From sequence record MZ417521: a stretch of 64,000 nucleotides of DNA; one strand, written 5' to 3'. Source of the DNA: Escherichia phage 132. A program made the translations under genes and the position numbers. Below are positions 11,411 through 31,438 of the stretch, piece by piece. The notes under the pieces were generated by a model that worked only from the letters and a program-made list of their open reading frames with translations, ran no database searches and was not told the origin of the DNA. Numbering within the stretch: position 1 is the stretch's first letter; each line of letters starts with the position of its first letter.

Positions 11411-12835
11411 TTATGGATAGGTATAGATGATACCAGTTTCTAAAGCAGTTTTATGAATGATGTATCCATTACGCGATTCTTGAACATCAACTTCTGGATA
11501 GTCTTTCATCATCTTCTGAAGAGTGTAACGATGCAAGTAGTATTTACTATCTGGATCTTCAGTTTTCCAATCTTTACCTTCTTCAGTCATTTTTTGGATT
11601 TCATCCATAACCCACCAACCGCACCAGATATAAGCTGAGCTACGATGTGGAAGAGGATGAACATAAGGTAATTCACCTTCTGGTTCCGGAGCAACTTTAT
11701 CAGTCACTTGAACTTGACCTGTGGCTTTAACTGTTTTACTATCATAGTCAGTTGCTGTAACGACAGCAGTAACTTCAATAGTTTGACTTCCAATAGATGA
11801 GGTATCAACAGTATATACGTTAGTTGACCCTTCCACAGGAGAAGAATCTTTCTTCCATGAGTAAGTAATTTGTGCTGCTTCAGGTGCGCCAGTAACATTA
11901 GCAGTAAATGTAGCCGAAGCATCTTGCTGAACATTAATAGAAGGAGGAGTCAATGTAACCTGTGGATTCATTGTCTTCTTATTAACTGTCAATGATACTT
12001 CATTGGAAGTAACTTCCTTTTCATTATAATTTTCTGCAGTTACTTGGGCTACGCATTTAATTCTTTTTACTCCACTTGTAGTTGGAGTATAGTTAAATGT
12101 AGAGTTAGTTTCTCCACCAACTTGTGAATCATCTACATACCACTGATACGTGGCAGACGCTCCATCAGGTTGAGAAGCTAAGGCAGCAGTAAATTGAACC
12201 GGGGTTCCAATTACTCCAGCAGCAGGACTATCAGGAGTTACTGCCAAGGTAGTTGTCTGCGTCTTTTTATTAACCGTCAATGATACTTCATTAGAAGTAA
12301 CGCTCAGTGCATCATAATCTGTCGCAGTTACTTGAGCTACACACTTAATTTTTTTAACTCCGCTTGTAGTAGGAGTATAATTGAATGTAGCAGAAGTTGC
12401 TTCGCTCACAGGAGAACCGTCAACGTACCATTGATACGTAGCAGATGCGCCCGATGGCTGTGAAGCTAAGGCAGCAGTAAATTCAACGGCTGTTCCGATT
12501 ACTCCTTCTGGAGGACTATTAGGAGTTACAGCTAAGGTAGTTGTCTGTGTCTTATTTTGAACTGTGATAGTTGTACTAATTTCAGCTGTTTCAGCTTCAG
12601 CTTCAGCTTCTGGAACTGTATTTGTTGCAACCACTTTAATAGTCTTTTGACCAGCAGGTCCTTTTAATACATAATTAAAGGTTGCTTCAGCTCCATCCTG
12701 TGGAACATTATCTACACTCCAAGCATATGTAATAGGTCCATCTCCAGTTTGACCACTGGGTGTAGCAGTAAACTGCTTGGTTTCATCAATAACCCCTGTT
12801 GGTGTTTTAGGAGTTATATCAACTGTAAAAGCCAT
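11411..12835 (-). CDS. hoc: Highly immunogenic outer capsid protein Hoc, with an extra internal Ig-like domain
   Basis: 474 aa; N- and C-terminal regions match T4 Hoc by recall; contains two near-identical tandem ~98-aa Ig-like modules. Confidence 0.9.
   Translation of the reverse strand: MAFTVDITPKTPTGVIDETKQFTATPSGQTGDGPITYAWSVDNVPQDGAEATFNYVLKGPAGQKTIKVVATNTVPEAEAEAETAEISTTITVQNKTQTTTLAVTPNSPPEGVIGTAVEFTAALASQPSGASATYQWYVDGSPVSEATSATFNYTPTTSGVKKIKCVAQVTATDYDALSVTSNEVSLTVNKKTQTTTLAVTPDSPAAGVIGTPVQFTAALASQPDGASATYQWYVDDSQVGGETNSTFNYTPTTSGVKRIKCVAQVTAENYNEKEVTSNEVSLTVNKKTMNPQVTLTPPSINVQQDASATFTANVTGAPEAAQITYSWKKDSSPVEGSTNVYTVDTSSIGSQTIEVTAVVTATDYDSKTVKATGQVQVTDKVAPEPEGELPYVHPLPHRSSAYIWCGWWVMDEIQKMTEEGKDWKTEDPDSKYYLHRYTLQKMMKDYPEVDVQESRNGYIIHKTALETGIIYTYP
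11969..12556 (-). repeat. Tandem in-frame duplication (2 x ~294 bp) encoding adjacent Ig-like domains of Hoc
   Basis: Two consecutive ~294-bp units with high nucleotide identity; protein copies both begin KTQTTTLAVTP and end VTSNEVSLTVNKK. Confidence 0.8.
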
Positions 12836-28201: not shown

Positions 28202-28388
28202 AATAATCTAGTGGTAAGAGAGTACGATATATTTCAAACTTCGGACCTTTTTCATAGGCATCAAATGTTTCTGTGAATTTATTATAAGCATATGCATCTA
28301 CAAATTCGAGAATGACTTGTGATACAGAAGTAGAAACATCTCCACCTTCTTTTTGAGCAATGACAATTGTTTCTAAGTAAGCTTTCAT
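28200..28388 (-). CDS. Hypothetical small protein
   Basis: 62-aa ORF overlapping gene 30 stop by 4 nt. Confidence 0.55.
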   Translation of the reverse strand: MKAYLETIVIAQKEGGDVSTSVSQVILEFVDAYAYNKFTETFDAYEKGPKFEIYRTLLPLDY

Positions 28389-29848
28389 AGACCAGTTACC
28401 TCATGAAAATCACCAAATACATCCTCGAATGTATTAGCTTTAGTTTTATCTTCACGTAAACGAATCGCAATCGGAAGAAATAATTTAACGTAATCAGTGC
28501 GGCCATCAGATTTTAACCAACCGTTGCATTCGCACTCTAGAATTTTTCCAATATAATAATTTTGGTTTTCCATAATGCGAGTACGGTCAAGTTCATGCGA
28601 TTTTACACCGGCTTTATCTTTTAAGCCTGAACCAGCATTTACTTTAATTTTTCCACACTCTGACTCAAGAATAAATCCACCTGCTTTAGTAGGGTCTTTA
28701 CGGTGAGGATAAATTCCTACAATTTTTAAATCAACATCAATTACTTCTTTAAATTTATAGAGATTTTTTGAACGAGCATTTTCCCATAATCCATCGATAT
28801 TTTTGAGAATAATACCTTCAAGACCTTGGTCAATATACTTTTTATAAATTACCTTAGCTTCATCTAGGTTATTTACTACCTGGTTTTCAATTAAAATTAC
28901 TTTATCATATCCCGATGTCATTTGTTCTAGTTTAGAAAAACGTACATCATATTTTAAACGAAACGCTGGAAGACCGTATATTTCTACCAACGGGACATAA
29001 TCCCAGACCTGAAACTTCATACATTGAGCTTCTTTTTCAGAAATGGTTCCTTTTAAGGATTTATTGGCGATTCCATTAGAAGTAGTACGAGATTCCGCTA
29101 CTTCGGCGAATTCTTTGGCTTTACTAATTTCAGGATAAGCATCAAAAAGAAAATCTAGGCCTTCTGGTTCCTTTTTAACTTGCTCATGGTATACCAATTC
29201 GCCATCAATTAACACACCTTCTGGATGAATCTGGCGGGCTTCAGCAGTCATTTTGATTAACTCTTCCTTAAGAAGATCTAATCCTAGATATTCATTACCA
29301 GCTCGTGATAAAAGACGAACATCATCTAATTCATCGCCTCGGACTTCAGCAAAACACCGAGCTCCATCTGCTTTTAACTGCGCAAAGGCTGGAAACTTGA
29401 TATTCTTATTAATGCCTTTTTCATCATAAGAACTTGCAAGCATTTGAGGTTGTTCAGGAATTAAACCTGGCCAAACTTTATTTGCAATAGATACTGAAGC
29501 ACCGCATTCAAGGTCTCGCATCATAACTCGACGCAAAACTTCAACATCATCCTTTTTACCATCAGTGATATATCCAGTTAATTCCTCAATTGCAGCATTT
29601 CCAGTCAATTTCCGAGTAGCTAACGTGAATTCAATGAAGTCAAGCATATCGGTAATAGTCAGCATTCCAAAACTCTGGGTAGCAATACCCGGTTTAGGCC
29701 ATTTCTTGATATAATACTGTAACCCACGAGAATAAGTCAGACGATATACTCGTTTAAGCAATTCATTATCTTTATTCTTTTCAAGAATTGCTTGCTTCTG
29801 CTTAGTTGAACCAATAGATGCTATTTCGTTCAGAATTTTAAGAATCAT
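28385..29848 (-). CDS. 30: ATP-dependent DNA ligase gp30
   Basis: 487 aa; T4 DNA ligase length and N-terminus MILKILNEIASIGSTKQKQAILEKNKDNELLKRVYRLTYS by recall. Confidence 0.95.
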   Translation of the reverse strand: MILKILNEIASIGSTKQKQAILEKNKDNELLKRVYRLTYSRGLQYYIKKWPKPGIATQSFGMLTITDMLDFIEFTLATRKLTGNAAIEELTGYITDGKKDDVEVLRRVMMRDLECGASVSIANKVWPGLIPEQPQMLASSYDEKGINKNIKFPAFAQLKADGARCFAEVRGDELDDVRLLSRAGNEYLGLDLLKEELIKMTAEARQIHPEGVLIDGELVYHEQVKKEPEGLDFLFDAYPEISKAKEFAEVAESRTTSNGIANKSLKGTISEKEAQCMKFQVWDYVPLVEIYGLPAFRLKYDVRFSKLEQMTSGYDKVILIENQVVNNLDEAKVIYKKYIDQGLEGIILKNIDGLWENARSKNLYKFKEVIDVDLKIVGIYPHRKDPTKAGGFILESECGKIKVNAGSGLKDKAGVKSHELDRTRIMENQNYYIGKILECECNGWLKSDGRTDYVKLFLPIAIRLREDKTKANTFEDVFGDFHEVTGL

Positions 29849-30114
29849 TGTTCATCCTTTAGAGTTTGGTTTACAGCTCTATTATAAATCAATTCATCAT
29901 TAAGCTCAGTCAAAGACCTGTGGTACGTGGTTCTAACTTTATTTCCTTGCATCCAGTGCTTGACGTAAATGAAACCTTGCTCTACACATTTTTTAAAAAT
30001 TCGTTCGTCTTTTTGAGCTCGGAATTCTGGATTGCATCTAAAAAATTGATTTACGTGACCGTAATCACGTGTAGTATTACCTTCATTTTCATAAATAGTG
30101 TGAACAACAAACAT
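29845..30114 (-). CDS. Hypothetical protein (30.1-like position)
   Basis: 89-aa ORF overlapping neighbours. Confidence 0.6.
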   Translation of the reverse strand: MFVVHTIYENEGNTTRDYGHVNQFFRCNPEFRAQKDERIFKKCVEQGFIYVKHWMQGNKVRTTYHRSLTELNDELIYNRAVNQTLKDEQ

Positions 30115-30977
30115 TAGAATGCTCCTTGGAAAATATTATCACCACTAGTAAATCTATTAAAATATCCTGCATCACCAGGCTTAGTATAACTCCACGTATG
30201 GAATGGATTCATATGATACGGGTGTGTATAATATGGATTATATGGATGTGTATAATATGGATTATACGGATTAAATCCAGGAGTTCTCCAGGTAGTGTTC
30301 CAACGAAAAGAATCGTTTTTAACCATCTTCTCAATTACATCTTTTATAGCTTTTTCACTATCAAAACTTTCTTTATTTTCCTTCGGTGAAAAAAGCTTAT
30401 TTTCTACATCATTCCATGTATAAACTCGCTGCGCAGTTTTTGGAATATTGTCACGCTCTCCTCGAGCCATCCAATAAACAGGAACATTTAATATTTCACT
30501 CGCATGATCGCAGTGGTGGGCGAGATCGTCAATATAACAAATTACATTATATTTCTCTTTTGCCTTTTTGAATAACTCTTCTTTTGAAGAATCATGACCA
30601 CACATCATTACTTCTGAGAAGGCACCAGGAAAAAGAGCATTCAAATTAAATTGACGATTCAGCAGAGCGTCAATAGAATCACCCAATGCTGTAACAGCTA
30701 CAAAATTATAATCTTCTTTTAGTTTGTTAATTACGCACAGGGCATCTTTATATGGAGACAGGTAACGAATAAAATCTGATCGATTGTATTTTTCAATTAG
30801 CTTGACACCAAGTTCTTCATCACAATTAAAGAGTTTACCCGGAGAAATAAATTTCTCATCTTGGATCATTTTTAAAATATGTTCTAACGGAAGATTATAT
30901 TTCTGAGCAAAATAAGGAAGACCTGATTGCCAGCTTAAACATACTCCATCAATATCAGTTAAAATAGTAGGCTTCAT
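30114..30977 (-). CDS. HAD-like hydrolase with C-terminal Pro/Tyr-rich tandem repeat (30.2-like position)
   Basis: 287 aa; N-terminal TDIDGV matches HAD motif I (DxDG); C-terminal NPYNPYYTHPYNPYYTHPY. Confidence 0.65.
   Translation of the reverse strand: MKPTILTDIDGVCLSWQSGLPYFAQKYNLPLEHILKMIQDEKFISPGKLFNCDEELGVKLIEKYNRSDFIRYLSPYKDALCVINKLKEDYNFVAVTALGDSIDALLNRQFNLNALFPGAFSEVMMCGHDSSKEELFKKAKEKYNVICYIDDLAHHCDHASEILNVPVYWMARGERDNIPKTAQRVYTWNDVENKLFSPKENKESFDSEKAIKDVIEKMVKNDSFRWNTTWRTPGFNPYNPYYTHPYNPYYTHPYHMNPFHTWSYTKPGDAGYFNRFTSGDNIFQGAF
30224..30271 (-). repeat. Direct 24-bp tandem repeat (2 copies) encoding the repeated octapeptide in the 30.2-like protein
   Basis: GTGTATAATATGGATTATA recurs at 30224-30242 and 30248-30266, period 24 nt. 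Confidence 0.8.
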
Positions 30978-31438
30978 AGAGAGTCTCTTAATAGGTTTAA
31001 CACATCAATAAATTCAGCTTCGGTTAGTATTGTATCATCTTTTGTTAGACCACTAGCCATGCTGTGCTTCAAAACTTTTCCTTTCGAGGCTTGTAATGCA
31101 TCGCGAAAGCCCCTGTTTTGGAACGCTGCTTCAAAATATGCATTTGTGTATAATTCTTTCCACGCTGGAGAGTATCTTGAAAACGGAACTCCAAGCCAGA
31201 AGAGGGTCCCACGGTCCTGAGCTCTAGCATAAGACCTTCCAGCTTGTTGGGCGGCAAGCCCGGATAACCCAAATATACGACGTTGCTGTTCAATATTTTT
31301 CACCTTACACCCTTGGAGGAATCCTTCGAGACCTCCAAATTGGATACCATCCATAACAAAAGGCCATTGGGCGAAATTACTTAATGCGCATGATGGCCAT
31401 CTAAAATTGCTTCTAATCTCTAACTCAGACATTTTCAA
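30974..31438 (-). CDS. NADAR/YbiA-like (DUF1768) protein, putative ADP-ribose-processing enzyme (30.3-like position)
   Basis: 154 aa; segment ALSNFAQWPFVMDGIQF...FLQGCK parallels the YbiA/NADAR N-terminal signature as recalled; not confirmed by search. Confidence 0.5.
   Translation of the reverse strand: MKMSELEIRSNFRWPSCALSNFAQWPFVMDGIQFGGLEGFLQGCKVKNIEQQRRIFGLSGLAAQQAGRSYARAQDRGTLFWLGVPFSRYSPAWKELYTNAYFEAAFQNRGFRDALQASKGKVLKHSMASGLTKDDTILTEAEFIDVLNLLRDSL

What the first reader, a model, noticed from the sequence alone, without database searches (positions are those of the whole stretch)
30114..30977. HAD-like protein with a perfectly duplicated 24-bp repeat encoding a Pro/Tyr-rich C-terminal tail
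The N-terminus TDIDGV matches HAD phosphatase motif I, resembling 5'(3')-deoxyribonucleotidase-type enzymes. The C-terminus contains NPYNPYYTHPYNPYYTHPY, produced by an exact 24-bp direct repeat (GTGTATAATATGGATTATA core at 30224-30242 and 30248-30266). Short perfect tandem repeats are slippage-prone, so the tail length may vary between isolates; an aromatic/proline-rich tail on a nucleotidase-like enzyme is unusual and could mediate protein-protein interaction.
Basis: partly seen in the sequence, partly recalled or inferred. Interest (0 to 1): 0.45.

Follow-up and report, generated by a model that had tools for sequence, protein, structure and literature searches.

The report
T4 gene 30.2: nucleotidase-like enzyme, variable tail
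This is the T4-type phage gene 30.2: a strongly conserved phosphatase domain related to enzymes that remove the phosphate from DNA building blocks, followed by a floppy proline/tyrosine-rich tail whose length differs between phage isolates, partly through gain and loss of a 24-base repeat. It is a sensible functional prediction for an uncharacterised gene, not a new kind of system.

Summary
The ORF 30114-30977 (minus strand, 287 aa) exists, starts MKPTILTDIDGV, and carries a 24-nt tandem duplication at 30222-30269. The two units are 22/24 identical and both differences are synonymous, so the octapeptide PYNPYYTH is exactly doubled.

The window is a Tequatrovirus, and the gene is the ortholog of T4 gene 30.2, between 30.3 and 30.1/DNA ligase.

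Residues 223-287 are predicted to be disordered. This part is hypervariable within the genus, while the core is under strong purifying selection.

The repeat lies in a variable spacer between two motifs that are conserved across genera. Natural isolates carry 1, 2 or 3 copies, always in frame.

Substrate, biological role and tail partner remain untested. Interest is modest.

The parts
30114..30977 (-). Whole gene, ortholog of T4 gene 30.2 (287 aa plus TAA stop at 30114-30116). Its start overlaps the stop of the 30.3-like ORF, and its stop overlaps the start of the 30.1-like ORF.
   Evidence: ORF list and sequence. 100% identical to phages ES12/ES26, with 617 phage records matching. Labelled 30.2 in T2, RB14 and Shfl2 records. 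PHROG 420, E 3e-89.
30393..30977 (-). HAD phosphatase core with helical cap, aa 1-195.
30942..30956 (-). HAD motif I, D8-I-D10-G-V12 (nucleophile Asp and Asp+2 general acid/base).
   Evidence: D8 and D10 are invariant in 82 close and 84 distant homologs.
30750..30941 (-). C1-type helical cap inserted just after motif I (aa 13-76; helices 16-26, 32-40, 46-50, 54-65). Carries the invariant W16, S18, Y64 and S67 and the nearly invariant F43.
   Evidence: Secondary structure of the model. Conservation. Alignment of this stretch to mouse cytosolic 5'(3')-deoxyribonucleotidase 2jao.
30690..30692 (-). HAD motif II, T96, at the end of strand VAVT.
   Evidence: Nearly invariant.
30582..30584 (-). HAD motif III, K132.
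   Evidence: Invariant in all three alignments.
30525..30530 (-). HAD motif IV, D150-D151 (YIDDL), the Mg2+ ligands.
   Evidence: Nearly invariant. D151 is at least 90% conserved in distant relatives.
30312..30392 (-). Linker plus one predicted amphipathic helix (aa 196-222; helix 207-220).
   Evidence: Model secondary structure; pLDDT about 87 for the 211-220 block. A helix at the same place appears in the model of the Klebsiella-phage homolog.
30117..30311 (-). Pro/Tyr/Trp/Phe/Asn/Thr-rich, acid-poor C-terminal tail (aa 223-287), predicted to be disordered.
   Evidence: pLDDT 36-58. Composition: P 12%, Y 14%, F 11%, E 0%. Within the genus, 21 non-synonymous and 28 gapped columns against 8 synonymous-only.
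30276..30290 (-). Tail motif A, W230-R-T-P-G234 (W[RK]xPG), conserved across genera.
   Evidence: The Trp is nearly invariant in alignment A4. The pattern occurs in 17 tails and in 0 cores.
30222..30269 (-). Two 24-nt tandem units encoding PYNPYYTH twice (aa 237-252). They lie in the variable spacer between motifs A and B.
   Evidence: Copy number is 1, 2 or 3 in related phages.
30147..30176 (-). Tail motif B in a degenerate form, G268-DAGYFNRF-T277. It corresponds to GGIEYLYNRPT in T4 and GxGIEYLxRQPT in Klebsiella-type and other T4-like phage homologs.
   Evidence: Alignment A4: E, Y and T are nearly invariant. The motif lies 6-10 residues from the C-terminus in 16 homologs.
30117..30143 (-). 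C-terminal nonapeptide GDNIFQGAF, conserved within Tequatrovirus only.
   Evidence: Alignment of 17 Tequatrovirus proteins.

Best explanation
The gene is the ortholog of phage T4 early gene 30.2 and encodes a two-part protein.

Part 1 (aa 1-195) is a Mg2+-dependent HAD phosphomonoesterase with a small four-helix cap. It belongs to a divergent, phage-borne branch next to the 5'(3')-deoxyribonucleotidase (NT5C, PF06941) family. It most likely removes the phosphate from nucleoside or deoxynucleoside monophosphates through an aspartyl-phosphate intermediate on D8, with D10 as acid/base, T96 and K132 holding the phosphate, and D150/D151 holding Mg2+. In this way it would adjust the nucleotide pool of the infected cell.

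Part 2 (aa 196-287) is one helix followed by an intrinsically disordered, aromatic/proline-rich tail. The tail is built as: anchor motif W[RK]xPG, then a variable [NH]P[YF]-rich spacer, then a Y-[LF]-x-N-R-x-T motif, then a short end. It most likely tethers the enzyme to an unidentified partner.

The 24-nt duplication sits in the spacer. It is an in-frame slippage or unequal-recombination polymorphism that changes spacer length by 8 residues per step and has no on/off effect.

Shown here: gene identity, fold, catalytic motifs, family links, predicted disorder, copy-number variation, and selection pattern. Inferred: nucleotide substrate, role in the nucleotide pool, and tethering by the tail.
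For: Identity and context:
- 100% identical to Tequatrovirus ES12/ES26.
- Neighbours are Pfam Phage_30_3, DUF3045 (30.1), ATP-dependent DNA ligase, Gp30.7 and Gp30.8.
- The gene is labelled 30.2 in T2, RB14 and Shfl2 records.

Fold:
- pLDDT above 90 for residues 1-190.
- Foldseek E 1.6e-8 to 5e-8, with cdN and mdN among the top hits.

Catalytic residues:
- D8, D10 and K132 are invariant; T96, D150 and D151 are at least 90% conserved in 82 homologs.
- D8, D10, R108 and K132 remain invariant at about 25% identity.

Family link:
- The core profile finds 1,368 clusters in 1.84 billion representative proteins.
- 43 of 83 distant members hit PF06941 NT5C, more than hit the generic HAD models.
- P0166, from a phage-like contig, scores 38.4 bits on NT5C against a cut-off of 24.8. 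It is 27% identical to the window core over 189 aa, E 2e-19.
- Profile against PDB: 3bwv putative 5'(3')-deoxyribonucleotidase E 2.3e-6 over its full length, the SSM1 nucleotidase, mdN 5e-4, XMP phosphatase.
- Among predicted viral structures, the hits after the orthologs include many phage '5' nucleotidase' or 'deoxyribonucleotidase' entries.

Precedent: the PBS1 dTMP phosphatase is a biochemically shown phage enzyme of PF06941 (PMC12697855).

Selection: in the core, 70 codon columns vary only synonymously and 7 non-synonymously.

Tail:
- pLDDT below 60 in two independent models.
- The motif architecture is conserved across genera.
- 16 of 17 Tequatrovirus genes keep the reading frame despite many indels.

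Repeat: 1, 2 and 3 exact units in D5505, the window and BYEP01.
Against: - The window protein itself matches no Pfam or NCBIfam model, even at E up to 1.
- Its narrow family profile reaches cdN only at E 0.1. hhalign against the 3bwv sequence gives 9% probability. Assignment to the nucleotidase branch therefore rests on intermediate sequences and on structure.
- No activity, substrate or phenotype data for T4 30.2 turned up in the searchable literature.
- T4 recycles host dNMPs, so it is not obvious why it would destroy them.
- No partner for the tail is known. Many homologs lack the tail (lengths 196-220 aa), so the tail is not needed for catalysis.
- The window allele carries a degenerate motif B (DAGYFNRFT against the GIEYLxxQPT consensus).
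Confidence: 0.6

Rival explanations
1. The HAD domain is a phosphatase for a non-nucleotide small molecule, such as a sugar phosphate, a ribose or ADP-ribose-derived phosphate, or a cofactor intermediate, and not a (d)NMP phosphatase.
For: - One homolog is named 'FMN phosphatase YigB' by JGI.
- A few homologs match only the generic Pfam HAD models.
- The gene sits beside 30.3 and near the Alt ADP-ribosyltransferase gene in several genera.
Against: - Among specific families, NT5C is the one most often matched by relatives (43 of 83).
- Every significant solved relative with a defined substrate is a nucleotide monophosphatase.
- The cap size and the coverage of the target are closest for 3bwv and cdN.
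- The invariant W16 aligns with the aromatic residue six positions after the second Asp in cdN.
Confidence: 0.2
2. The protein is a polynucleotide 3'-phosphatase that heals DNA ends for the DNA ligase encoded directly downstream, like the phosphatase domain of polynucleotide kinase-phosphatase.
For: - The gene lies immediately upstream of the DNA ligase gene in Escherichia, Klebsiella, Acinetobacter and Shewanella T4-like phages.
- There are weak hits to the polynucleotide kinase PHROG (E 1.2e-3) and, for one relative, to PF25109 HAD_PNKP (E 3e-3).
- Phage kinase-phosphatases appear low in the viral fold search.
Against: - The model has a roughly 60-residue helical cap over the active site. 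From general knowledge of HAD cap classes, this is typical of small-molecule HAD enzymes, whereas PNKP-type phosphatases have no cap.
- The PNKP hits are below threshold and much weaker than the NT5C links.
- The Acinetobacter and Shewanella phages with this gene also encode a separate kinase-phosphatase (AAA_33 plus HAD_PNKP) nearby.
- The conserved gene order may simply reflect the general synteny of T4-like genomes.
Confidence: 0.07
3. The tail is a rapidly evolving host-interaction module under diversifying selection, for example evading or engaging a host defence factor or a strain-specific partner. On this view the repeat polymorphism is adaptive, not neutral.
For: - Within one genus the tail shows 21 non-synonymous and 28 gapped columns against 8 synonymous-only, while the core shows 7 non-synonymous against 70 synonymous-only.
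- The reading frame is kept in 16 of 17 genes.
- Distinct allele classes (T4-type GGIEYLYNRPT and T2/window-type GDAGYFNR[LF]T) coexist in Tequatrovirus.
Against: - The same pattern is expected for a disordered spacer under relaxed constraint.
- Among about 60 records with this allele, nearly all have two copies.
- Many homologs lack the tail altogether.
- No partner or phenotype is known.
Confidence: 0.12

Closest known systems
5'(3')-deoxyribonucleotidases of the HAD superfamily (Pfam PF06941 NT5C: human/mouse cdN and mdN; Staphylococcus epidermidis 3bwv)
   Same: - Rossmann-like HAD core with a small helical cap inserted after motif I.
- DxDGV motif I, Thr motif II, Lys motif III and DD motif IV.
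- Similar size, about 190 aa.
- An aromatic residue (W16) at the position aligned with F18 of cdN.
- Structural superposition covers nearly the whole target (3bwv 161/168, cdN 173/190).
- Linked through P0166, which passes the NT5C threshold.
   Different: - The window protein does not reach any Pfam threshold, and identity to solved members is 16-19%.
- It carries a 90-residue C-terminal extension (helix plus disordered Pro/aromatic tail) that is missing from the roughly 168-200-residue solved nucleotidases and from the mostly 190-215-residue distant relatives.
- Its activity has not been tested.
Phage PBS1 dTMP phosphatase Dtm (PF06941), which removes dTMP so that dU-DNA can be made (PMC12697855)
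   Same: A phage-encoded HAD enzyme of the deoxyribonucleotidase family acting on the nucleotide pool. It was recognised the same way, by structural similarity to mitochondrial deoxyribonucleotidase at low sequence identity.
   Different: - PBS1 replaces T by U and needs to purge dTMP. No comparable need is known for T4-type phages, which (from general knowledge) exclude dC through dCTPase and dCMP hydroxymethylase.
T4 gene 30.2 product and its orthologs (PHROG 420, 'unknown function')
   Same: Same gene. The first 110 residues are identical to T4, and the 195-aa core is 98.5% identical to T4. Same position between 30.3 and 30.1/ligase.
   Different: The T4 tail lacks the PYNPYYTH duplication (PYNPYHPYQTHPF instead) and has the fuller motif GGIEYLYNRPT. 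The T4 protein is 278 aa against 287 aa here.
In-frame coding tandem repeats (minisatellite-type length polymorphisms) in disordered protein regions
   Same: - A short tandem unit, nearly identical at the DNA level.
- Copy number varies among isolates in whole-unit steps.
- The junction sequences fit slippage or unequal recombination: the single D5505 unit is a chimera of the 5' end of unit 1 and the 3' end of unit 2.
   Different: It is not a phase-variation switch. The unit is 24 nt (8 codons), so expression is never turned off, and only three copy-number states were seen, with two strongly predominant.

Membership tests
HAD superfamily, phosphatase branch | Rossmann-like alpha/beta core of the HAD fold | tested here: met
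HAD superfamily, phosphatase branch | Motif I DxDx[TV], with Asp at +2 (phosphotransferases, as opposed to dehalogenases) | tested here: met
   D8-I-D10-G-V12. D8 and D10 are invariant in alignments A1, A2 and A3.
HAD superfamily, phosphatase branch | Motif II Ser/Thr, motif III Lys/Arg, and the acidic motif IV pair | tested here: met
   T96 is at least 90% conserved, K132 is invariant, and D150-D151 are at least 90% conserved. K132 is invariant and D151 at least 90% conserved in distant relatives.
HAD superfamily, phosphatase branch | Mg2+-dependent phosphoryl transfer through an aspartyl-phosphate intermediate | not testable with these tools
   Needs an enzyme assay.
NT5C / 5'(3')-deoxyribonucleotidase family (PF06941) | Score above the Pfam gathering threshold for PF06941 | tested here: not met
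   No Pfam hit for the window protein at E up to 1. Among 82 close homologs, 17 give sub-threshold NT5C hits, best E 1.2e-4. Homolog P0166 (27% identical, E 2e-19) passes with 38.4 bits against a 24.8 cut-off. The window protein is therefore filed as a neighbouring divergent branch, not as a member by Pfam's criterion.
NT5C / 5'(3')-deoxyribonucleotidase family (PF06941) | Small helical C1 cap inserted after motif I; overall size about 170-200 aa | tested here: met
   Helices 16-26, 32-40, 46-50 and 54-65 lie between strand 1 and the next core helix. 3bwv aligns over 161 of 168 residues and cdN over 173 of 190.
NT5C / 5'(3')-deoxyribonucleotidase family (PF06941) | Aromatic cap residues that stack on the base (cdN F18, F44, Y65; their role is recalled from memory and was not verified in a paper here) | tested here: inconclusive
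   In the HMMER alignment to 2jao, the invariant W16, the nearly invariant F43 and the invariant Y64 fall at or next to the cdN aromatic positions. That alignment has E 0.1, and literature searches for the residue roles found nothing.
NT5C / 5'(3')-deoxyribonucleotidase family (PF06941) | Phosphatase activity on 5'- and 3'-(deoxy)nucleoside monophosphates | not testable with these tools
   Needs an enzyme assay.
PNKP-type HAD polynucleotide 3'-phosphatase (PF25109) | Capless HAD core open to nucleic-acid ends; match to the family model | tested here: not met
   A cap is present in the model. The window protein has no PF25109 hit. There is only a weak PHROG 415 hit at E 1.2e-3, and one distant relative hits at E 3e-3, below threshold.
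Phase-variable contingency repeat | Copy number varies among isolates | tested here: met
   1 unit in D5505, 2 in the window, HY01 and Shfl2, and 3 in BYEP01.
Phase-variable contingency repeat | Unit changes shift the reading frame or promoter spacing and so switch expression | tested here: not met
   The unit is 24 nt, or 8 codons. All variants stay in frame with the same C-terminus.

The most novel reading that the evidence does not exclude
The hypervariable Pro/aromatic tail could be a docking module that evolves in an arms race. It would place a nucleotide monophosphatase on a specific host or phage complex, for example a defence sensor or the nucleotide-synthesising and replication machinery, where the enzyme removes a nucleotide-derived toxic or signalling molecule. 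On this reading T4 30.2 would be a counter-defence or pool-editing factor, and the tail alleles, including repeat copy number, would set host-strain specificity.
Probability: 0.1. Interest if true: 0.7.

Novelty: new member of a known kind. Interest (0 to 1): 0.3.

Why it matters
T4 is the reference lytic phage, and gene 30.2 is conserved across T4-like phages of Escherichia, Klebsiella, Acinetobacter, Shewanella and other hosts. Even so, PHROGs lists its family as 'unknown function', and no study of it turned up in the searchable literature.

A well-supported prediction that it is a nucleotide monophosphatase next to the NT5C family gives a direct, cheap experiment: a dNMP/NMP phosphatase panel plus a D8N mutant. 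It would also add a missing activity to the well-studied T4 nucleotide metabolism.

The strongly constrained enzyme core next to a hypervariable disordered tail with conserved end motifs is a tidy natural data set for asking what such tails do in phage early proteins.

In itself the finding is an annotation improvement and a minor coding length polymorphism, not a new mechanism.

Tried and rejected
- Direct family searches with the window protein found nothing: Pfam at E up to 1, NCBIfam, and a PDB sequence search. Only PHROG 420 'unknown function' matched.
- The narrow family profile against PDB gave cdN only at E 0.1. hhalign of the core profile against the 3bwv sequence gave 9% probability. 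The direct sequence link is therefore weak, and I relied on the intermediate P0166 and on structure.
- Literature searches for T4 30.2 / gp30.2, for a T4 deoxyribonucleotidase, and for the cdN/mdN base-stacking residues returned nothing usable.
- The three-copy probe found no match, probably because of the low-complexity filter. The number of three-copy genomes is therefore known only as at least one (BYEP01).
- A second AlphaFold2 run, on a homolog carrying the consensus GIGTGIEYLNRQPT motif with a tail-matched alignment, tested whether the tail docks back on the enzyme. The tail stayed at pLDDT 35-46, so there is no support for an intramolecular latch. The result is uninformative more than negative.
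- I asked whether the C-terminal extension of the Yersinia phage homolog P0067 is a fused 30.1 domain. No similarity was found.
- I asked whether 30.3 has a solved relative. None was found by sequence. My recollection that 30.3-like proteins are related to NADAR/YbiA enzymes therefore stays an untested lead.
- The afdb50 fold library was not available.
- Rejected ideas: phase variation (the unit is a multiple of 3), an overlapping gene on the plus strand (the 87-aa ORF at 30126-30389 is just the low-complexity reverse reading of the repeat, with no support), and an RNA element (no Rfam or tRNA hit in the window).
Full report
**1. What is in the sequence**

The minus strand of 30114-30977 carries a 287-codon ORF that starts MKPTILTDIDGV. 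Its ATG overlaps the stop of the upstream 154-aa ORF (30974-31438). Its stop overlaps the ATG of the downstream 89-aa ORF (29845-30114), which is followed by a 487-aa ORF.

The exact repeat is 20 nt, with 2 matches against 0.00 expected from shuffles. Tandem Repeats Finder gives period 24, 2.3 copies, 90% matches and score 98, and this is one of only two tandem repeats in the 64-kb window.

On the coding strand the units are CCGTATAATCCATATTATACACAT and CCATATAATCCATATTATACACAC. They are 22/24 identical and both differences are synonymous. PYNPYYTH (aa 237-244) is therefore exactly repeated (aa 245-252) and followed by PYH. 'Perfect' is true of the peptide but not of the DNA.

**2. What genome and which gene**

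The gene is 100% identical to Escherichia phages ES12 and ES26. It matches 617 phage records, almost all Tequatrovirus.

The neighbours are Pfam Phage_30_3, DUF3045 (T4 30.1), ATP-dependent DNA ligase, Gp30.7 and Gp30.8. An Alt-type 698-aa ORF lies beyond the ligase. In the T2, RB14 and Shfl2 records the orthologous gene is labelled 30.2.

This is therefore the ortholog of T4 early gene 30.2. PHROGs places it in family 420, 'unknown function'. No study of it turned up in the searchable literature.

**3. The N-terminal domain**

The window protein matches no Pfam or NCBIfam model and no PDB sequence.

An alignment of 82 homologs shows the following:
- D8, D10, W16, S18, Y64, S67, R108, K132 and R172 are invariant.
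- T96, D150 and D151 are at least 90% conserved.

These positions are HAD motifs I (DxDGV), II (T), III (K) and IV (DD).

AlphaFold2 with this alignment gives pLDDT above 90 for residues 1-190. The model has a Rossmann-like core and four short helices (16-65) inserted right after motif I, which is a C1 cap.

The Asp at +2 (D10) places the enzyme among the phosphotransferases and not the dehalogenases. This rests on established HAD knowledge.

**4. Which branch of the HAD superfamily**

A core-only profile (A2) finds 1,368 50%-identity clusters in 1.84 billion representative proteins. Most are tail-less proteins of 190-215 aa.

Of 83 distant members (E 1e-19 to 1e-30 to the profile), 43 match PF06941 NT5C, 19 match PF00702 and 14 match HAD_2.

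One of them, P0166, lies on a phage-like contig. It passes the NT5C gathering threshold (38.4 against 24.8 bits, full length) and is 27% identical to the window core over 189 residues, E 2e-19.

A profile that includes these relatives finds the following in the PDB:
- 3bwv at E 2.3e-6 over its full length.
- The SSM1 nucleotidase at 2e-5.
- Mitochondrial deoxyribonucleotidase at 5e-4.
- XMP phosphatase at 3e-3.

All the solved relatives with a defined substrate are nucleotide monophosphatases.

Among predicted viral structures, the hits after the orthologs include many phage proteins named 5' nucleotidase or deoxyribonucleotidase.

The direct links are weak: cdN at E 0.1, and hhalign against 3bwv at 9% probability. 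I therefore file the protein as a divergent branch next to NT5C, not as a member by Pfam's own criterion. In the alignment, the invariant W16 falls on the cdN aromatic residue six positions after the second Asp. Its base-stacking role is my recollection and could not be verified.

A biochemical precedent exists. The PBS1 dTMP phosphatase belongs to PF06941 and was found the same way (PMC12697855).

**5. The tail**

Homolog lengths run from 176 to 347 aa. Many stop a few residues after the core.

In the window protein, a linker and one helix (207-220) are followed by 65 residues rich in P, Y, F, N, T and W, with no Glu. This part has pLDDT 36-58.

Tails from different genera share an architecture:
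- W[RK]xPG, with a nearly invariant Trp.
- A variable Pro/aromatic spacer.
- GxGIEYLxxQPT, with E, Y and T nearly invariant, ending 6-10 residues from the C-terminus.

Other clades end instead in LRAYY-type or Y-x-LLNKVTAND motifs. T4 has GGIEYLYNRPT. The window allele has the degenerate form GDAGYFNRFT.

The 24-nt repeat lies in the spacer. That spacer is itself a run of [NH]P[YF] triplets, which matches the 9-nt sub-period reported.

A second AlphaFold2 model, of a homolog with the consensus motif, also left the tail at pLDDT 35-46. Nothing therefore suggests that the tail packs onto the enzyme.

**6. Variation among isolates**

I compared 17 Tequatrovirus genes. Excluding the truncated KMB42 gene, the counts of codon columns are as follows:

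| Region | Invariant | Synonymous only | Non-synonymous | With gaps |
|---|---|---|---|---|
| Core, aa 1-195 | 118 | 70 | 7 | 0 |
| Tail, aa 223-end | 22 | 8 | 21 | 28 |

- Gene lengths range from 825 to 888 nt and all are multiples of 3. Only KMB42 (762 nt) is truncated.
- The PYNPYYTH unit occurs once in D5505, twice in the window, HY01 and Shfl2, and three times in BYEP01. The junctions are those expected from slippage or unequal exchange.
- About 60 records carry this allele. Of these, 41 are at least 99% identical to the two-copy probe, and 2 match the one-copy probe at 99% or better. The three-copy probe was lost to filtering.
- A second 6-nt indel (TSG against TSGSG) lies nearer the C-terminus.

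The variation is in frame, rare, and confined to one allele class.

**7. Mechanism**

Shown: a strongly constrained, catalytically complete, capped HAD phosphatase joined to a hypervariable, predicted-disordered tail.

Inferred: the substrate is a (deoxy)nucleoside monophosphate, the enzyme edits the nucleotide pool of the infected cell, and the tail tethers it to a partner through its conserved end motifs while the spacer tolerates length change.

The gene sits directly upstream of the DNA ligase gene in Escherichia, Klebsiella, Acinetobacter and Shewanella T4-like phages. This prompts the rival idea of a DNA-end 3'-phosphatase. The cap argues against it, and so does the presence of a separate kinase-phosphatase gene nearby in the Acinetobacter and Shewanella phages.

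**8. Verdict**

Both the observation and the interpretation are supported. The result is a better functional prediction for a long-known but uncharacterised T4-type gene, plus a minor coding length polymorphism. It is a new member of a known kind, of modest interest.

Noticed in passing
window 11411-12835 (-), repeat at 11973-12553: The only other tandem repeat in the window is 288 nt x 2 at 79% identity. It lies inside a 474-aa ORF with repeated Ig-like segments that looks like the head decoration protein Hoc with one extra duplicated domain. From memory, T4 Hoc is about 100 aa shorter.
   Followed up: partly
protein P0014 (302 aa, Logan contig of 1378 nt): A tail-less HAD core is fused in frame to a homolog of the downstream gene 30.1 (DUF3045; 40% identity to the window's 30.1, E 9e-18). 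This is either a genuine fusion linking the two genes functionally or an assembly or frameshift artefact.
   Followed up: partly
L017, L018, L019 (Acinetobacter, Shewanella and Klebsiella T4-like phages); window 28385-30977: The HAD gene lies directly upstream of the ATP-dependent DNA ligase gene in all four genera examined, with or without a 30.1-like ORF between them. The 30.3-like gene precedes it in the Acinetobacter phage.
   Followed up: partly
L006 (Escherichia phage vB-Eco-KMB42, OR539221.1), locus 244-1135: The 30.2 ortholog is truncated to 253 aa within the tail (annotated CDS 244-1005, then a 130-nt unannotated gap before 30.1). This is a natural or sequencing-derived loss of the C-terminal motifs.
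   Followed up: no
window 30123-30146 region; L003, L005, L007, L008: A second small in-frame length polymorphism lies near the C-terminus: TSG in the window, HY01 and D5505, against TSGSG in Shfl2, T2, PhiZZ23 and YUEEL01 (6-nt AGTGGT duplication).
   Followed up: partly
window 30974-31438 (-): The listed 30.3-like ORF starts at a TTG and is 154 aa, whereas several records annotate shorter versions (381 nt against 459 nt). It has no solved relative by sequence. My recollection of a link to NADAR/YbiA-type enzymes was not tested.
   Followed up: partly
database records H14 (OR062944.1), P0076, and L010 (NC_041919.1): Likely annotation errors. The 30.2 ortholog is labelled 'RNA repair pathway DNA polymerase beta' in phage 303Ecol101PP. 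A homolog is labelled 'DNA ligase' in Acinetobacter phage AB1I1M-1. Phage HP3 carries the taxonomy line 'Rosemountvirus' although this locus is Tequatrovirus-like.
   Followed up: no
window 1-64000: No tRNA gene and no Rfam family reaches threshold anywhere in the window.
   Followed up: yes
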